This document shows, in pieces, positions 2,631 to 39,379 of a DNA stretch of 56,055 nucleotides. The first letter of the stretch is position 1; the number at the start of each line of letters is the position of its first letter. The translations under genes and the position numbers were made by a program. The notes beneath the pieces are model-generated. The model made no database searches, was not told the origin of the DNA, and saw only the letters and a list, made by a program, of their open reading frames with translations. This stretch comes from Coprococcus sp. (lineage in GTDB: Bacteria > Bacillota > Clostridia > Lachnospirales > Lachnospiraceae): NCBI GenBank assembly GCA_051877705.1, contig JBJEJD010000086.1, positions 1-56,055 on the forward strand, in the 5' to 3' direction.

Positions 2631-4760
2631 ATGAGCAGTCAATTCAATCAGCCGGAGAACTTCAGAAATCGTGAGCTGAGCTGGCTGGAGTTCGATTACA
2701 GAGTATTAAGCGAAGCCAGGGACAAAAGCCTGCCCCTTTTTGAAAGATTAAAATTTTTAAGTATTACTTCGTCAAACCTGGATGAGTTTTTCATGATTCG
2801 AGTAGCTTCTCTGAAAGATATGGTTCATGCAGGTTATACCAAGCCTGATATTGCTGGAATGAAGCCTCAGGAACAGCTGGAACGTATCAGTGAGAAGACA
2901 CACGAACTGGTGGGCATTCAGTACAGTACCTATAATCGTTCATTTCTGCCGGCATTAAAACAGAATCATATGGTCATCATAGATCAGTATGAAGACCTGT
3001 CTCCGAAACAGGCAAAATTTGTGGATGACTATTTTATGAGGGATGTATATCCGGTGCTGACACCGATGGCTGTGGATTCTTCCAGGCCGTTTCCGCTGAT
3101 TCGTAATAAAACATTAAATATAGGTGCATTGATCAGAGATGAGAAGCAGGAGGGAGAATTTGATTTTGCCACTGTGCAGGTACCAAATGTGCTTCCGAGA
3201 CTTGTCATGATTCCTTCCGATGATGAGGAGGATACAACGCTGATTCTTCTTGAACAGATTATTGAGAAGAATATTCAGAAACTCTTCCTGAATTATGAGG
3301 TTATCTGTGCACATCCGTATCGTATTATGAGAAATGCTGATTTGTCCATTGATGAGGATGATGCGGCAGACTTGTTGAAGGAGATACAAAAGCAGCTGAA
3401 AATGCGCCAGTGGGGCGAGGTGATCCGTCTTGAGGTGGAGGAGAGTATGGATAAGCGGCTGCTGAAGATTCTCAGAAAAGAACTGGATGTACCGGAGGAA
3501 GCCATCTATCGTATCGGAGGGCCTCTTGATCTGACTTTTCTCATGAAGGTCAGCGGTTTCGAGGGATTTGATCATCTCCGCTATGAAAAATACAAACCGC
3601 AGCCTGTTAAGGGTATGAATATGGAAGAAGATATTTTCACTCAGATCAGACGGAAGGATATCCTTTTACATCACCCATATCAGACCTTTGATCCCGTTAT
3701 TGAGTTTGTAAGGCAGGCATCAAAAGATCCTGATGTCCTGGCTATTAAACAGACACTCTACCGTGTCAGCGGTAATTCACCGATTATCGCCTCTCTGGCG
3801 GCTGCAGCGGAGAATGGCAAACAGGTGACGGTCCTGGTGGAGCTGAAAGCCCGTTTTGACGAAGAAAATAATATTATTTGGGCAAAGATGCTTGAAAAGG
3901 CGGGATGTCATGTAATTTACGGTCTGAGAGGTTTAAAGACACACAGTAAGATTACGCTGGTCGTGAGAAGAGATGAGGATGGAATCCGCCGCTATGTACA
4001 CCTTGGAACGGGCAATTATAATGATCAGACGGCAAAACTCTACACAGATATGGGCCTTCTGACCTGTTCACGACCAATTGGTGAGGACGCTACAGCTGTC
4101 TTTAATATGCTTTCAGGGTATTCGGAGCCTCCTCACTGGAATAAACTGGTAGTGGCACCAATATGGCTCAGAGATAAATTCCTGAAACTCATTGAGCGGG
4201 AGACAATGCATGCCAGAGCAGGTAAAACAGCCAGAATCGTAGCTAAAATGAATTCGCTTTGCGATGCCAGAATCATTGAGGCTTTATATGAAGCCTCCTG
4301 TGCCGGTGTTCAGATCGACCTGATCATCCGTGGTATCTGCTGTTTGAAGGCAGGCATACCGGGTCTTAGTGAAAACATACATGTTCGTTCCATCGTAGGT
4401 AATTTCCTTGAACATAGCAGAATCTTCTATTGTTATAATGACGGGTGGGAAGATATCTATATGGGAAGTGCGGACTGGATGCCAAGAAATCTTGATAAAC
4501 GTGTGGAAATCATGTTCCCGGTGGAAGATGAGGAATGCAAAAAAGAGGTCAAACATATCCTCAGTGCACAGCTGGCAGATAATGTCAAAGCCCATATCCT
4601 CCAGCCCGATGGCAGTTACACAAAAATAGACAAAAGAGGTAAAGTCCTCCTCAATTCCCAGGAATACTTCTGCCAGAAAGCCATCAGCGAAGCAAAAAGC
4701 CCGGAAGAAGAACATCAGGAAGTACGCCGCGTCTTCGAACCACTCTATCATGTAGAATAA
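2631..4760 (+). CDS. ppk1: Polyphosphate kinase 1
   Basis: NRELSWLEF, SSNLDEFFMIRVA, AIKQTLYR, ELKARFDEENNI, KTHSK, FLEHSRI, GSADWMPRNL. Confidence 0.97.
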   Translation: MSSQFNQPENFRNRELSWLEFDYRVLSEARDKSLPLFERLKFLSITSSNLDEFFMIRVASLKDMVHAGYTKPDIAGMKPQEQLERISEKTHELVGIQYSTYNRSFLPALKQNHMVIIDQYEDLSPKQAKFVDDYFMRDVYPVLTPMAVDSSRPFPLIRNKTLNIGALIRDEKQEGEFDFATVQVPNVLPRLVMIPSDDEEDTTLILLEQIIEKNIQKLFLNYEVICAHPYRIMRNADLSIDEDDAADLLKEIQKQLKMRQWGEVIRLEVEESMDKRLLKILRKELDVPEEAIYRIGGPLDLTFLMKVSGFEGFDHLRYEKYKPQPVKGMNMEEDIFTQIRRKDILLHHPYQTFDPVIEFVRQASKDPDVLAIKQTLYRVSGNSPIIASLAAAAENGKQVTVLVELKARFDEENNIIWAKMLEKAGCHVIYGLRGLKTHSKITLVVRRDEDGIRRYVHLGTGNYNDQTAKLYTDMGLLTCSRPIGEDATAVFNMLSGYSEPPHWNKLVVAPIWLRDKFLKLIERETMHARAGKTARIVAKMNSLCDARIIEALYEASCAGVQIDLIIRGICCLKAGIPGLSENIHVRSIVGNFLEHSRIFYCYNDGWEDIYMGSADWMPRNLDKRVEIMFPVEDEECKKEVKHILSAQLADNVKAHILQPDGSYTKIDKRGKVLLNSQEYFCQKAISEAKSPEEEHQEVRRVFEPLYHVE

Positions 4761-4825
4761 CTGCCGCCGAAATGCAGGGGGTAAAAATAACAACTTCCCA
4801 TAAACGATTTGTATTCGGTATAAAA

Positions 4826-4925
4826 GCTGCTGAAGGGCAGTAAATAGATAAGAAGTCCCCATAAACGATTTGCGATGAGCATGTTTAGGGGGACTTCTTA
4901 TCTATGATATACTGCCTGAAGCAGC
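4826..4925. repeat. Long imperfect inverted repeat between convergent genes (probable bidirectional terminator; copy A of a dispersed hairpin element)
   Basis: Perfect 17-bp arms atagataagaagtcccc (4844-4860) / ggggacttcttatctat (4889-4905), plus outer arms ggcagta/tactgcc and gctgc/gcagc. Confidence 0.8.
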
Positions 4926-4932
4926 GTAAGGT

Positions 4933-6408
4933 TTATTCGCTGACAGACAGCATTCTTTCGATGAGTGTGCCGTATTTTTCGTTGAATCTGAGGATATCAT
5001 CCTTTTCATAAACGTTGCACAGCGGTGAGGTCTGAATTCCCTCAAAATACTGACTGATATCCTGGATGAGAATATTGTTCTGAACCGTATAAAAAGCAGG
5101 ATGATGGGGGCTTTTGTATTGTCCGGTGTTCTTGAGAAAAAGCTTCTTCTTATTATTATAAACTGACATCCGGAAAAGATCGGCTGAGTTTGGAACAAAT
5201 TCATCATCGATAATATAAAATCGTATGTTTGGATTTTTCTGGATCAGTTCGAGAACATGTTTTAAATGGTTTTTGCGTTCATCTTTTGACATGTGGTAAA
5301 TGATATCTGTAAAATGGATATTGCCATCTGTTATATATTGCATAAGGCGTGATTTAAGCAGATAGAAATCTATACAGCCTTTTTCGAAAATCTCCTCCCA
5401 GGTAATGCCCAGATGCGTAATCAGATGTACCATATTTTCGTTAAAACCCTGATTTCTGGCGGATTGAATCAATCTTGGGTTCAATTCGGGAGGAAGCAGA
5501 AATTCAAAGCCATGAGTCAGCATTATCTGAAAATTGTTATGAGCGTAAAATTCAGTTCTGTAGCCATTATAGAAAAGTTCTTCTGAATTGGCGGAGTGGA
5601 TCAGAAGGTTGTTAGGGGTGAATTCTGAGGCAATCTTCTGATATATTTCATTAACCTGATTGATATCCGTTATAATGGAAACCATACTGATGTGATGGTC
5701 TTTGTCCAGAGAACATTGAATGGCCATACAATCCCTGATGACAAGCATATTCATCAGGTTCATAAGATGATTATCATAAAAGTCAAAATTGATATAATGG
5801 TAATGATTGATCAGATGGTATAAATGAAAGATATAGCGCAGCTGTTCATCGCGCTGGTCAAGATTCATGCCTATTTGCACATGGATCGGATTTTCCGGTA
5901 TATCTGTACATGGATGTTCGAGGAGCAGATCAGGAAGAAAACTGCAAATATCCATCGTGCAGAGGATGTGGCAGCTCCCGCCGATATGTCTGACCAGATG
6001 AGGAAGTTCTGTTTTAAAAAAAGCTTTAATATCAGGTTCCCACAGCAACAGACGGTATTGTGTTGAGGTAACGGTACGTGTGTTATCTGGAGTGTTGTCG
6101 TAGGATTCTTTATAAGCTTCTTTTAATATATGAAAAATGAACGCTGCCAGCTGTTCTTTATCTTTGGGTTCTTCTATTTTAAAGTCTCGGGCAAAAAGTG
6201 CTTCTTCTCCCTGGGCAAAGACTTCTTCTGCGAAGACATCAGCAAGACATTTGTTGACAGAGGAGGAGGCTTTGGCTGCAGGAAGTTTGTCTTTGTTACA
6301 CCATTTACTGATATAGGAAGTATCATATCCTACAATTTCAGCCAGATTGGTCAATTTGATATTGGTAAAACGAATCAGTTTTTTTAACAAAAAGCCATAG
6401 GTATTCAT
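4933..6408 (-). CDS. Hypothetical 491-aa protein with N-terminal XRE-like HTH (putative regulator)
   Basis: N-terminus LTNLAEIVGYDTSYISKW resembles a Cro/C1-type HTH; GGGGGA SD upstream; remainder not recognised. Confidence 0.7.
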   Translation of the reverse strand: MNTYGFLLKKLIRFTNIKLTNLAEIVGYDTSYISKWCNKDKLPAAKASSSVNKCLADVFAEEVFAQGEEALFARDFKIEEPKDKEQLAAFIFHILKEAYKESYDNTPDNTRTVTSTQYRLLLWEPDIKAFFKTELPHLVRHIGGSCHILCTMDICSFLPDLLLEHPCTDIPENPIHVQIGMNLDQRDEQLRYIFHLYHLINHYHYINFDFYDNHLMNLMNMLVIRDCMAIQCSLDKDHHISMVSIITDINQVNEIYQKIASEFTPNNLLIHSANSEELFYNGYRTEFYAHNNFQIMLTHGFEFLLPPELNPRLIQSARNQGFNENMVHLITHLGITWEEIFEKGCIDFYLLKSRLMQYITDGNIHFTDIIYHMSKDERKNHLKHVLELIQKNPNIRFYIIDDEFVPNSADLFRMSVYNNKKKLFLKNTGQYKSPHHPAFYTVQNNILIQDISQYFEGIQTSPLCNVYEKDDILRFNEKYGTLIERMLSVSE

Positions 6409-29472: not shown

Positions 29473-29836
29473 GTAAGTCTGTTGGATAATCGCGGCTGCA
29501 AGTGTCGAAAGACCGCAGGTGAGGAAAGTCCGAGCTTCTCAGGGCAGAGTGCCGGATAACGTCCGGTGGAGGCGACTCCAAGGCCAGTGCAACAGAAATA
29601 AACCGCCTGTTTTGACAGGTAAGGGTGGAAAGGCGAGGTAAGAGCTCACCGCTTCTCTGGTAACAGAGAAGGCTCTGTAAACCCCACTCGGAAGCAAGAC
29701 CGCATATAAAACGATACGTCGGCCCGGCGTGTTTTAGGGTAGGTCGCTCGATCCTGCTGGCGACAGCAGGGCTAGATAGATGATTATCGTATCCGGAATT
29801 CCGGATTCACATAACTCGGCTTATAGACAGGCTTAC
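29473..29836 (+). ncRNA. rnpB: RNase P RNA (bacterial, type A-like)
   Basis: GAGGAAAGTCCGAG, AGTGCAACAGAAA, GGTAAGAGC, TAAACCCC, TAGATAGATG and AACTCGGCTTAT; P1 pairing gtaagtctgt/acaggcttac. Confidence 0.95.
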
Positions 29837-29950
29837 TGAATAAAATGACCAGGAACCGTATATCAGGGATCATATCAGATGCAGGAGTTTGAGATGGTTG
29901 GCTGTTTATCCGGTTCCTTTTATGTATCTGATAAATGAAGTAAAGGATGG

Positions 29951-36976: not shown

Positions 36977-37068
36977 AATCAGTTGCAATGCCGGCCTGAA
37001 TCATGGATAATAAAGGAGATGTCTTAAAAAGACAGATCCTAATTACATACAAAGGAGATTGGATAAAG

Positions 37069-37923
37069 TTGGCACAGGAAAGCTGGTTTGAAAGAATATG
37101 GCGTCTTATGACGCCGGAACTGGTATATTTTGGGATATGTTATCTGGTGGATATAGTTGTCGGAATGTACTGGGGATATTCTATAATGGGAGACTATATA
37201 GCAGATGACCTGACGGTGGATGTGGAAGGTTTTACGGCGACGATGATGGAGATGCTGATGGAATATGCCATGCTGCTGCAGTCCATTGCGGCTCTGGTGG
37301 CCATATTCTTTCTGGCACGCATGTATTTAAATGATTACAAAAAACGCCGTTTTGTTTTTGATAAAAGGAGCGTGAAAACACCTTACTGGATACTGCTGAT
37401 ACCGGCGGGGGTATTTGCTTCCCTGGCAGGCAATATGCTGATGAATGTATCAGATCTGGCAGAGATGTCAGAAAGCTTCCAGGAATCTGAGCAGCTGCTG
37501 TTCTCCGGACCTTTTATTATCCAGATCGTTGGTATTGGTCTGATTATCCCGGTCTGCGAGGAGTTGATTTATCGTGGACTGATTTATATGAGAATGCGTC
37601 AGTATCTGAATGTCAATCTGGCTATTGTTGCATCGGCGCTGATTTTCGGTATTGTCCATGGCAATATTGTTCAGGGTATTTACGCATTTATGATTGGAAT
37701 TCTGTTTGCTTATGCCTATGAGAAATATGGTTCACTGAAAGCACCGGTCATACTGCATATTTCTGCCAATATTCTGTCACTGGCATTGACGGTGGTGGCT
37801 CCTTCCTTTGACAGCAGGAGTGTTCTGATGGGAGCTGGAATCGTATCAGTCCTGCTGTGCCTTGCAGTCGTATTTGTTATCGACAGGAATGTATCCGCAG
37901 AGCGAATTTATTTTACAAGTTGA
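37069..37923 (+). CDS. CPBP (CAAX/Abi) family intramembrane metalloprotease
   Basis: PVCEELIYRG, FGIVH, H..N motifs; likely TTG start after AAGGAG. Confidence 0.88.
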   Translation: MAQESWFERIWRLMTPELVYFGICYLVDIVVGMYWGYSIMGDYIADDLTVDVEGFTATMMEMLMEYAMLLQSIAALVAIFFLARMYLNDYKKRRFVFDKRSVKTPYWILLIPAGVFASLAGNMLMNVSDLAEMSESFQESEQLLFSGPFIIQIVGIGLIIPVCEELIYRGLIYMRMRQYLNVNLAIVASALIFGIVHGNIVQGIYAFMIGILFAYAYEKYGSLKAPVILHISANILSLALTVVAPSFDSRSVLMGAGIVSVLLCLAVVFVIDRNVSAERIYFTS

Positions 37924-37958
37924 TGCGGGTCAATGACGCAGTACATTACAGTCAGTGA

Positions 37959-38008
37959 AAGAACTCCTGAAAAACATGCTCATCGCAGATTGTTTTTCAG
38001 GAGTTTTT
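37959..38008 (+). terminator. Terminator-like hairpin (copy B of the dispersed hairpin element)
   Basis: aactcctgaaaaaca / tgtttttcaggagtt stem plus T run; loop shared with 4850-4899. Confidence 0.75.
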
Positions 38009-38172
38009 TATAGCCTTTTCGGACTGCTGCTGAAAAGGAAGAAAAAAGTAACGCCGTTATGAACAAAAAGGTTTTTTGACAGATAACTGGTGATTTTACT
38101 GTCGATGGATGATGATTGCCGAATGTTTTTAGATATGCTATACTTGGAATGTCAATTTGCAGGAAACAAGCA

Positions 38173-38311: not shown

Positions 38312-39379
38312 ATGGATAAGAGTGAGAAGTTAAAGGCTTTGGATGCGGCGATTTCAAGGATTGAGAAGGATTATGGCAAGGGATCGATCATGAAGCTGGG
38401 AGACAAGGGAACGGCCATGGATGTGGAGACGATTCCTACAGGTTCTCTTAGTCTTGATCTGGCTCTTGGCCTGGGCGGCCTGCCGAAGGGACGTGTTATT
38501 GAGATATATGGTCCTGAATCTTCAGGTAAGACGACAGTAACTTTACATATGGTGGCAGAGGTGCAGAAGCGTGGCGGTATCGCAGGCTTTATAGATGCAG
38601 AGCATGCACTGGATCCTGCATATGCCAGAAATATTGGTGTAGATATTGACAATCTGTATATTTCACAGCCGGACAATGGTGAGCAGGCTCTGGAGATTAC
38701 GGAGACGATGGTACGTTCGGGTGCCATTGATATTATTGTTGTGGATTCGGTAGCAGCACTTGTACCGAAGGCGGAGATCGACGGTGATATGGGTGATTCT
38801 CATGTGGGTCTTCAGGCCAGACTGATGTCTCAGGCTCTCAGGAAGCTGACGGCAGTGATCAGCAAGTCTAACTGTATTGTAATTTTTATTAATCAGCTCC
38901 GTGAGAAGGTGGGGGTTATGTTCGGCAATCCTGAGACGACTACAGGCGGTCGTGCATTGAAGTTTTATTCGTCTATCCGTCTGGATATCCGGCGTATCGA
39001 ATCCATCAAACAGGGTGGTGAGATCGTAGGTAACCGTACCCGTGTAAAGGTTGTGAAGAACAAGGTGGCGCCTCCGTTTAAGGAAGCTGAGTTTGATATT
39101 ATGTTTGGTAAGGGTATTTCAAGAGAAGGAGATATTCTGGATCTTGCTGCCAACACAGGTATCGTCAATAAGAGCGGTGCATGGTATTCCTATAATGATG
39201 CAAAGATTGGTCAGGGACGTGAGAATACCAAGGCATATTTTCGTGAGAATCCGGCAATTATGGATGAGATAGAACATAAGGTGCGTGTACATTTCGGACT
39301 GGAGAAGGATGATGCAGCCGTTGGGGATGTATCATCTGTATCTGCAGATACTGCGGCAATTGATGAAGAGAATATATAA
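38312..39379 (+). CDS. recA: Recombinase A
   Basis: [38 protein letters not shown]. Confidence 0.99.

What the first reader, a model, noticed from the sequence alone, without database searches (positions are those of the whole stretch)
4850..4899. Dispersed 50-bp hairpin element with conserved loop and co-varying stem (copy A; copy B at 37959-38008)
Seen: the reverse complement of 4850-4899 (aagaagtccccctaaac-atgctcatcgcaaatc-gtttatggggacttctt) aligns without gaps to 37959-38008 (aagaactcctgaaaaac-atgctcatcgcagatt-gtttttcaggagttttt), 38/50 identical. A 16-nt core, aaacatgctcatcgca, is identical. Four stem pairs show compensatory double changes (G-C>C-G, C-G>T-A, C-G>G-C, T-A>A-T). Both copies begin about 33-35 nt after the stop codon of unrelated genes, in the same orientation relative to that gene. 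Ordinary terminators do not conserve a 16-nt loop. Inference: a REP-like or non-autonomous mobile family, or a 3'-UTR structure whose loop is recognised by a protein (e.g. a HUH/RAYT-type nuclease or an RNA-binding factor).
Basis: partly seen in the sequence, partly recalled or inferred. Interest (0 to 1): 0.75.

Follow-up and report, generated by a model that had tools for sequence, protein, structure and literature searches.

The report
Fixed-tip mobile hairpins of gut Lachnospiraceae
The two hairpins are copies of an apparently undescribed family of gene-less repeats, about 50 in this gut bacterium, whose tip stays almost unchanged while the paired arms differ from copy to copy; they are likely mobile DNA cut at that tip by an enzyme not yet identified, and some copies ride inside miniature IS66-type transposons.

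Summary
Real, and bigger than reported. The 16-nt tip recurs at 42-49 sites in this genome and in a few other Lachnospiraceae. Arms are only 35% alike between copies yet 94% Watson-Crick paired; the tip is 91% identical. The tip is the shrunken junction of a longer element: medium and long forms occur here and in 30 of 301 family genomes (up to 215 copies). Nine of 42 copies carry ISBst12/IS66-type ends, some with 8-bp duplications; copies A and B do not. Copies without such ends sit just behind stop codons in the gene's sense (21 of 23), unrelated to replication strand. Half-copies pile up only on the 3' side (15/62 vs 1/64), and one accessory gene is gained or lost at the tip. RAYT and IS91 enzymes do not track the family; no Rfam or paper hit. 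G-U wobbles are not enriched, which argues against an mRNA hairpin. Best reading: a non-autonomous mobile DNA hairpin broken at its tip; enzyme unknown. The scan already noted IS66 MITEs with folded interiors and a conserved-tip hairpin family on other DNA. New variant of a known kind.

The parts
4826..4925 (-). Copy A: full imperfect palindrome (inner arm about 22 bp, outer arm to about 42 nt), starting 7 nt after the stop of ORF 4933-6408; no IS66-type end detected
   Evidence: also present at the orthologous site of G006, absent in G001, G002, G004, G005
4864..4885 (-). Conserved tip of copy A: AAC + 16-nt loop ATGCTCATCGCAAATC (4867-4882) + GTT
4786..4811 (-). Decayed half-copy 3' of copy A, beginning at CAAATC of the loop and followed by a worn right arm; missing in G006
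   Evidence: one contig of run X2 shows a further duplication starting at the same loop position (joint 4872 to 4756)
37958..38009 (+). Copy B: 18-bp arms around loop 37976-37991 (two differences from consensus), ending in a T run
   Evidence: present with a decayed loop in G006, replaced by unrelated sequence in G001-G005
37935..38031 (+). Possible worn outer foot of copy B (GAC ... T-GCT), resembling the bulged foot of G102 copies; tentative
   Evidence: read by eye output and G006 orthologue; did not pass the strict foot test
4933..6408 (-). Context: 491-aa ORF with no Pfam hit whose stop precedes copy A
2631..4760 (+). Context: polyphosphate kinase gene converging on copy A
37003..37923 (+). 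Context: CAAX-protease-like gene whose stop precedes copy B (recA follows at 38312)

Best explanation
The element is a gene-less, dispersed DNA hairpin repeat of Lachnospiraceae that is likely mobile on its own account: its conserved tip is predicted to be the site that an unidentified strand-cutting enzyme recognises and opens, while the roughly 30-bp arms likely serve only as a paired spacer and are probably kept complementary by copying one arm from the other at the DNA level. SHOWN: copy-number bursts; arms variable but paired; the tip equals the two junction strands (AYGCTC and CAAATC) of medium and long forms minus their central hairpin; half-copies lie only on the 3' side and start within or just before the tip; one gene is present or absent with the tip as junction; a minority of copies lie inside ISBst12/IS66-type ends. 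INFERRED: a nick at the tip primes local strand-displacement copying (as modelled for BIME amplification) and occasional exchange between copies; IS66 ends are a secondary carrier; copies behind stop codons persist because they took over the terminator position. The enzyme is not identified.
For: Arms: 1557 Watson-Crick pairs vs 94 mismatches and 58 bulged bases in 54 elements; mean arm identity 35%, loop 91% in 49 elements. Pairs 4-12 are 0.90 paired vs 0.49 with shuffled partners, best shuffle 0.57. In G216, 12 copies have 98% identical cores but 45% identical mid-arms, 165 of 192 paired. No G.T excess: 19 vs 25, long form 39 vs 69, control 213 vs 115. The same tip occurs in another genus (G102) with a different foot, GAC...T-GT at 30-36 nt in 8 of 8 copies, and no IS66 end in 0 of 9. 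The medium form is in this genome at C120, C128, C2, C202. Half-copies: 15 of 62 at 3', 1 of 64 at 5', background 7 of 600. C144: a 1.25-kb ATPase gene between a half-copy and a second arm+loop is absent in G006, with the loop as junction; G102 has an abiEii-containing pair between two near-identical direct copies. Long form: only 6 of 131 sites have both IS66-type ends.
Against: No enzyme was found. Y1 transposase is absent from G131 and G305. The RAYT-like gene overlaps 1 of 29 long-form genomes. IS91-type Y2 is in 5 of 22 element-bearing vs 8 of 22 comparison genomes. No recurring neighbour gene among 131 sites. Half-copy junctions are spread over core positions 1-14, not one bond, and several are orthologous pairs, so not independent. 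No clean empty site was found for a copy without IS66 ends: of 8 sites compared with G006, 4 look like deletions, 1 like an empty MITE site, 3 are unclear. Strict sense orientation behind stop codons, unlinked to replication, is what an RNA element would show. Palindromes can self-correct, duplicate and delete by host replication slippage with no dedicated enzyme (own knowledge). The X2 joint rests on one contig of depth about 4.
Confidence: 0.45

Rival explanations
1. All copies descend from ISBst12/IS66-type MITEs. The transposase spread them, most later lost their outer ends by palindrome deletion, and half-copies and arm correction come from host slippage and template switching. The tip is conserved cargo.
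For: 9 of 42 copies have an IS66-type end at 59-74 nt from the loop against 1.6% background. Flanking repeats are 8/8, 8/8, 7/8, 7/8 and 7/7. Ends are identical to those of single-ORF IS66 elements in G216 and G102 and close to ISDge4's (PMC12898284). End-less copies share the inner arm with end-bearing ones. G006 shows deletion derivatives.
Against: 0 of 9 G102, 0 of 4 G430 and 1 of 16 G006 copies score for an end; 6 of 131 long-form sites have both ends. G102 copies have their own sharp fixed-distance foot. It does not explain why the tip stays fixed while arms are near-random between copies, nor the one-sided half-copies.
Confidence: 0.3
2. A 3'-UTR RNA element: the long stem ends or protects the transcript and a protein binds the loop, so selection at each locus keeps the loop.
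For: 21 of 23 end-less copies and 16 of 16 G006 loci are in the sense of the upstream gene, with stops 28-82 nt from the loop centre in this genome; 0 of 42 lie between divergent genes against 202 of 1065 background gaps. Not tied to replication strand: 13 lagging, 10 leading. Two independent compensatory changes in the 3-bp mini-stem of the loop. At copies A and B the element stands where congeners mostly have ordinary hairpins.
Against: No G.U enrichment on the sense strand. The long form shows the opposite strand bias (p=0.005) and no orientation bias (64 sense, 57 antisense, 20 between divergent genes). Loops do decay: 7 of 208 positions differ between orthologues. Distribution is patchy. 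No Rfam match.
Confidence: 0.17
3. A REP-type repeat mobilised by the genome's RAYT-like (subclass 2.1/TIRYT) tyrosine transposase.
For: G000, G006 and G431 have the gene. The G102 foot resembles the GGGGWSAS motif of TIRtrons (PMC3733652 section 16). Tandem arrays in G305 look BIME-like.
Against: The gene is flanked by a different doublet repeat with conserved arms and variable loops. No loop-like sequence near any of 15 Y1 loci. Overlap is 1 of 29. No GTAG/CGTC tag.
Confidence: 0.05

Closest known systems
REP/BIME and REPIN repeats with RAYT/TnpAREP (PMC3333891 passages, PMC6006769 passages and section 3 part 4, PMC3733652 passages and section 16)
   Same: Intergenic imperfect palindromes 3' of genes, lineage-specific bursts, local tandem amplification, a bulge near the foot in some lineages.
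   Different: Conservation is inverted (fixed tip, variable arms); arms are about 30 bp; no GTAG/CGTC tag; no flanked Y1 gene.
ISBst12 group of the IS66 family and its MITEs (ISDge4: single ORF, 14-bp ends GTAACTGCTCAGCA-like, 8-bp repeat; PMC12898284 passages)
   Same: 9 of 42 copies here, and long-form copies in G023, G131 and G103, carry matching ends, some with 8-bp duplications.
   Different: Copies A and B and most others lack the ends; the inner hairpin has its own conserved foot, tip and one-sided half-copies.
Clostridiales-1 RNA motif (Rfam RF01699; table row of PMC2864571 seen, its text description in an unreadable supplement)
   Same: Lachnospiraceae motif whose Rfam consensus has long stems; one sub-threshold match (40.9 bits, cut-off 48) sits inside the same IS66-type ends at L194.
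   Different: Four-way structure with different loops; neither the short nor the long form matches the model.
Rolling-circle origins of circoviruses (melting-pot model; PMC2690592 passages and section 11)
   Same: Works-like analogy only: a nicked, conserved loop on a palindrome whose arms can be regenerated by template switching.
   Different: No Rep gene, many chromosomal copies, no loop similarity.
Integron attC sites (recalled, no call)
   Same: Variable sequence with conserved pairing, extrahelical base, placed right after a stop codon, can bound accessory genes.
   Different: AAC/GTT close the tip rather than the base; mostly behind housekeeping genes; no integrase or cassette array seen.

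Membership tests
REP/REPIN (RAYT-associated) | 5' GTAG/GGAG (or CGTC) tag at the foot of a short hairpin | tested here: not met
   column profile and feet
REP/REPIN (RAYT-associated) | A Y1 transposase gene flanked by the repeat and co-occurring with it | tested here: not met
REP/REPIN (RAYT-associated) | Extragenic, multi-copy, locally amplified palindrome | tested here: met
IS66 (ISBst12-group) MITE | Terminal inverted repeats matching a single-ORF IS66 element | tested here: inconclusive
   met in 9 of 42 copies; not met in copies A and B, nor in 0 of 9 G102 copies
IS66 (ISBst12-group) MITE | 8-bp target duplication | tested here: inconclusive
   C88 7/8, C57 7/7, none at C81 or C160; 8/8 twice in G023 long form; not applicable to A and B
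IS66 (ISBst12-group) MITE | Cognate transposase in the host | tested here: inconclusive
   no tblastn hit in the 86% complete G000, but an IS left end sits at the end of contig C20; Pfam hit in 8 of 19 genomes
Clostridiales-1 RNA or other Rfam family | Covariance-model match | tested here: not met
Intrinsic terminator | GC-rich stem, loop of 3-8 nt, U tract, RNA 3' end | tested here: inconclusive
   scanner finds none because the loop is 16 nt; T-rich tails are visible; 3' ends not testable
IS91-type rolling-circle end | Association with a Y2 transposase | tested here: not met
   5 of 22 vs 8 of 22; ends of those elements were not compared with the tip
Integron attC | IntI integrase with attI and a cassette array | not tested
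   no integrase search was run; site layout differs on inspection
HUH-nicked hairpin | Site-specific nick with a 5'-phosphotyrosine | not testable with these tools
   needs biochemistry

The most novel reading that the evidence does not exclude
The tip is the recombination site of an undescribed Lachnospiraceae strand-transfer system that inserts behind stop codons, rewrites its own arms at each move, and lets accessory genes (an AbiEii-type defence pair, an ATPase) enter or leave chromosomes as hairpin-bounded cassettes: an integron-like route without an integron, with IS66 ends merely hitch-hiking.
Probability: 0.13. Interest if true: 0.82.

Novelty: new variant of a known kind. Interest (0 to 1): 0.52.

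Why it matters
Bacterial dispersed palindromes usually conserve their arms. Here the reverse holds, in a family that reaches 215 copies in one genome and is confined to Lachnospiraceae in the samples searched. If an unknown enzyme cuts the tip, element-rich genomes (G216, G131, G148, G023) give a direct way to find a new mobilising protein. They would also test how a paired but hypervariable arm is maintained. The element breaks assemblies, occupies the 3' ends of core genes, and borders accessory defence genes.

Tried and rejected
Rfam: no match to the element at gathering level or at E-value level.

Literature: no relevant paper for the loop string (one unrelated fungal paper), the long-core string (none), or topic searches (none; 91, 92, 103, 127: listings only, nothing describing it). 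The descriptive supplement of PMC2864571 (old .doc) could not be read and may bear on Clostridiales-1.

Collections: viral contigs 0 for three patterns; metagenome scan for the short loop 0; plasmid and phage BLAST nothing relevant.

The 13-mer scan (79 of 401 genomes) is mostly chance coding hits; G180, G242 and G302 were inspected and rejected.

Enzyme candidates rejected: RAYT/TIRYT, IS200/605 TnpA, IS91 Y2. Long-form copies upstream of three G216 tnpA genes share no common layout. No recurring neighbour gene.

Arms as spacers or guides: matches elsewhere in the genome were other element remnants or at chance level. Replication-strand targeting: rejected.

No RNA holder listed: no evidence either way. 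The second read-laying showed only another allele at the ychF-type locus and other copies.

My first orientation tally had spurious ORFs and was redone with a codon model. One loop match without arms (C58) was dropped before all counts. Six half-copies were left out of arm statistics, and two irregular loops as well. The class 'with IS66 end' has 13 members: 9 scored and 4 assigned by eye.

Full report
OBSERVATION. The two stretches align 38/50, share the exact 16-mer and fold well. The host assembly G000 (2.83 Mb, 86% complete) has 21 exact copies of the 16-mer and 37 hits of a 22-nt pattern against 0 for the reversed control. It has 42 sites by loop-plus-arm scan (one arm-less match dropped) and 49 by a profile HMM. 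The constant part is AAC-ATGCTCATCGCAAATC-GTT. Copy A spans 4826-4925 and has a half-copy at 4786-4811; copy B spans 37958-38009.

DISTRIBUTION. Of 61 genomes searched, G006 has 16 hits, G001 one and the other 58 none. The species-wide scan returned 22 loci whose record titles are Lachnospiraceae, one labelled only to order. G102, another genus, has 9 copies; G430 has 5 real copies among 7 hits; G431 has 2. Copies A and B are present in G006. Copy B is absent in G001-G005; copy A is absent in the four congeners with an orthologous site. Mostly unrelated hairpins stand there instead.

ANATOMY. In 54 elements the arms hold 1557 Watson-Crick pairs, 19 G.T, 25 A.C, 50 other mismatches and 58 bulged bases. 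Between copies, arms are 35% and loops 91% identical (49 elements). Pairs 4-12 are 0.90 paired against 0.49 with shuffled partners (33 copies). Ordinary post-stop hairpins of the same genome have 213 G.T vs 115 A.C (310 hairpins; Fisher p=0.0075), so the element lacks the wobble bias expected of a sense-strand RNA stem. The loop holds a 3-bp mini-stem with two independent compensatory changes among 65 loops. All 8 G102 copies tested have a foot GAC...T-GT, with a bulged T, 30-36 nt from the loop; only 1 of 36 G000 copies passes that strict test.

A SUPERFAMILY. G000 also holds a medium form: the same arms and the same AAC-ATGCTC ... CAAATC-GTT junction around a central hairpin (C120, C128, C2, C202). 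It also holds a long form (C81, C183 and others). The short loop is therefore the junction left when the central hairpin is lost (inference from sequence). The long-form pattern is in 30 of 301 family genomes, with 215, 51, 37 and 20 copies in the richest, and in 0 of 195 genomes of other families of the class. Its arms are complementary in 84 of 87 sites, 30% alike between copies, with A.C 69 vs G.T 39. This points to the opposite strand as the folded one; there the conserved mini-hairpin reads GC-GARA-GC (read from the pattern; that such loops are unusually stable is recalled). In G216, 12 copies have 98% identical cores but 45% identical mid-arms, 165 of 192 positions paired. G305 has tandem arrays of about 338 bp.

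IS66 LAYER. Some full elements (140-157 nt short form, about 210 nt long form) end in GT(A/T)AC(A/T)RYTCA(G/C). Five have flanking repeats of 8/8, 8/8, 7/8, 7/8 and 7/7; others have none. These ends are those of single-ORF IS66-family elements found in G102, G216 and G103 (families confirmed). They match ISDge4 of the ISBst12 group: single ORF, 8-bp repeat (PMC12898284 passages). A weight matrix finds such an end 59-74 nt from the loop in 9 of 42 G000 copies (background 1.6%), but not in A or B. It finds one in 1 of 16 G006, 0 of 9 G102 and 0 of 4 G430 copies, and both ends in 6 of 131 long-form sites. In G216 only 50 nt upstream were scanned, and one copy there does carry an end. A sub-threshold Clostridiales-1 match lies inside the same ends at L194, so these ends carry more than one cargo.

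POSITION. With a codon model, 21 of 23 end-less copies follow a stop codon in the gene's sense, 28-82 nt to the loop centre. The 13 end-bearing copies (4 assigned by eye) are 7 sense, 5 antisense and 1 unknown. None of 42 lies between divergent genes (background 202 of 1065). G006 is 16 of 16 sense. Orientation does not follow GC skew: 13 lagging, 10 leading. The long form has no such bias (64 vs 57, with 20 divergent). The terminator scanner cannot score a 16-nt loop, so termination is not shown.

DYNAMICS. Half-copies (part of the tip plus a right arm) lie 58-160 nt downstream in 15 of 62 elements and upstream in 1 of 64; background is 7 of 600. They begin at core positions 1-14, and some are orthologous pairs. 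Orthologous loci carry different stacks. At one locus G006 has unit A, G000 has A then half of B, and G431 has B then part of A. One contig of run X2 (depth about 4) shows a new 117-nt duplication starting at CAAATC, where G000's own half-copy of copy A starts. At C144 a P-loop ATPase gene (Walker A read from the sequence; family not scanned) lies between a half-copy and a second arm+loop. It is absent in G006, and the junction is the loop. In G102 a gene pair including an AbiEii toxin lies between two near-identical direct copies. Of 8 G000 sites compared with G006, 4 are deletion derivatives, 1 fits an empty MITE site and 3 are unclear. Loops differ at 7 of 208 positions between orthologues.

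ENZYME SEARCH. G000's only Y1 gene (REP-associated type, below cut-off) is flanked by a separate doublet repeat family. Its homologues are in 54 of 300 family genomes but in 1 of the 29 with the long form (lists compared by hand). G131 (88% complete) and G305 (97%) have no Y1 hit. Y2 is in 5 of 22 element-bearing and 8 of 22 comparison genomes, one of which (G001) has a single copy. No neighbour family recurs. Incomplete assemblies drop repeated IS, so absence is weak for IS66 itself.

MECHANISM. The data fit a hairpin whose tip is both conserved and the point where duplications and exchanges begin, and whose arms need pairing but not sequence. A nick that primes local copying is the BIME amplification model (PMC3333891 passages). 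Template switching that maintains a palindrome around a nicked loop is described for circovirus origins (PMC2690592 passages and section 11). Both are analogies, not membership. Host slippage at palindromes could give part of the same pattern, and the strong sense bias could reflect RNA function or selection for terminator use. Hence 0.45 for this reading, 0.30 for eroded IS66 MITEs, 0.17 for an RNA element and 0.05 for RAYT.

NOVELTY. No Rfam family and no paper found (the library lacks most subscription journals). No look-alike sequence among the scan's earlier notes. Those notes do describe IS66 MITEs with folded interiors and a conserved-tip hairpin family on other DNA; they are unchecked AI notes. 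I reached the IS66 link before reading the IS66 notes. Verdict: a real, apparently undescribed variant of dispersed palindromic mobile repeats, interest 0.52.

Noticed in passing
G000, many contigs (e.g. C63:5550, C115:15132, C175:4700); L001: A second repeat family: inverted doublets of a 26-30-nt GGGACAG...GTCCC repeat with variable loops (about 20 in the listed part), flanking the RAYT-like gene at C175:3915-4661.
   Followed up: partly
window 29474-29839: RNase P RNA class A.
   Followed up: no
L280 (G000:C20:24408-24530): Left end of a single-ORF IS66-type element at a contig end; the transposase is not assembled.
   Followed up: partly
L194 1074-1244: Clostridiales-1-like RNA motif inside IS66-type ends.
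   Followed up: partly
L224-L226 (G305): Three tandem arrays of about 338-bp units built from long-form elements, each closed by an inverted variant.
   Followed up: partly
G000:C175:13120-14562; L025, L033: Genes after the element at the ftsH-like locus differ between G000, G006 and G431; L025 and L033, from differently titled records, are identical in the stretch printed, suggesting recent transfer.
   Followed up: partly
L156 (G000:C57:16108-16735): ParE-like toxin-antitoxin pair next to an element copy (label by eye); G006 differs there. A lysine riboswitch lies beside another copy.
   Followed up: no
window 4933-6408: 491-aa ORF with no Pfam hit, conserved next to ppk in congeners.
   Followed up: no
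L160 and L158 left arms; C2:20406, C61:10199: One subfamily's arm contains the complement of part of the loop; two copies have collapsed by deletion between these short repeats.
   Followed up: partly
L016 146-327: 6S RNA near a G006 copy with unusually long (about 95-nt) arms.
   Followed up: no
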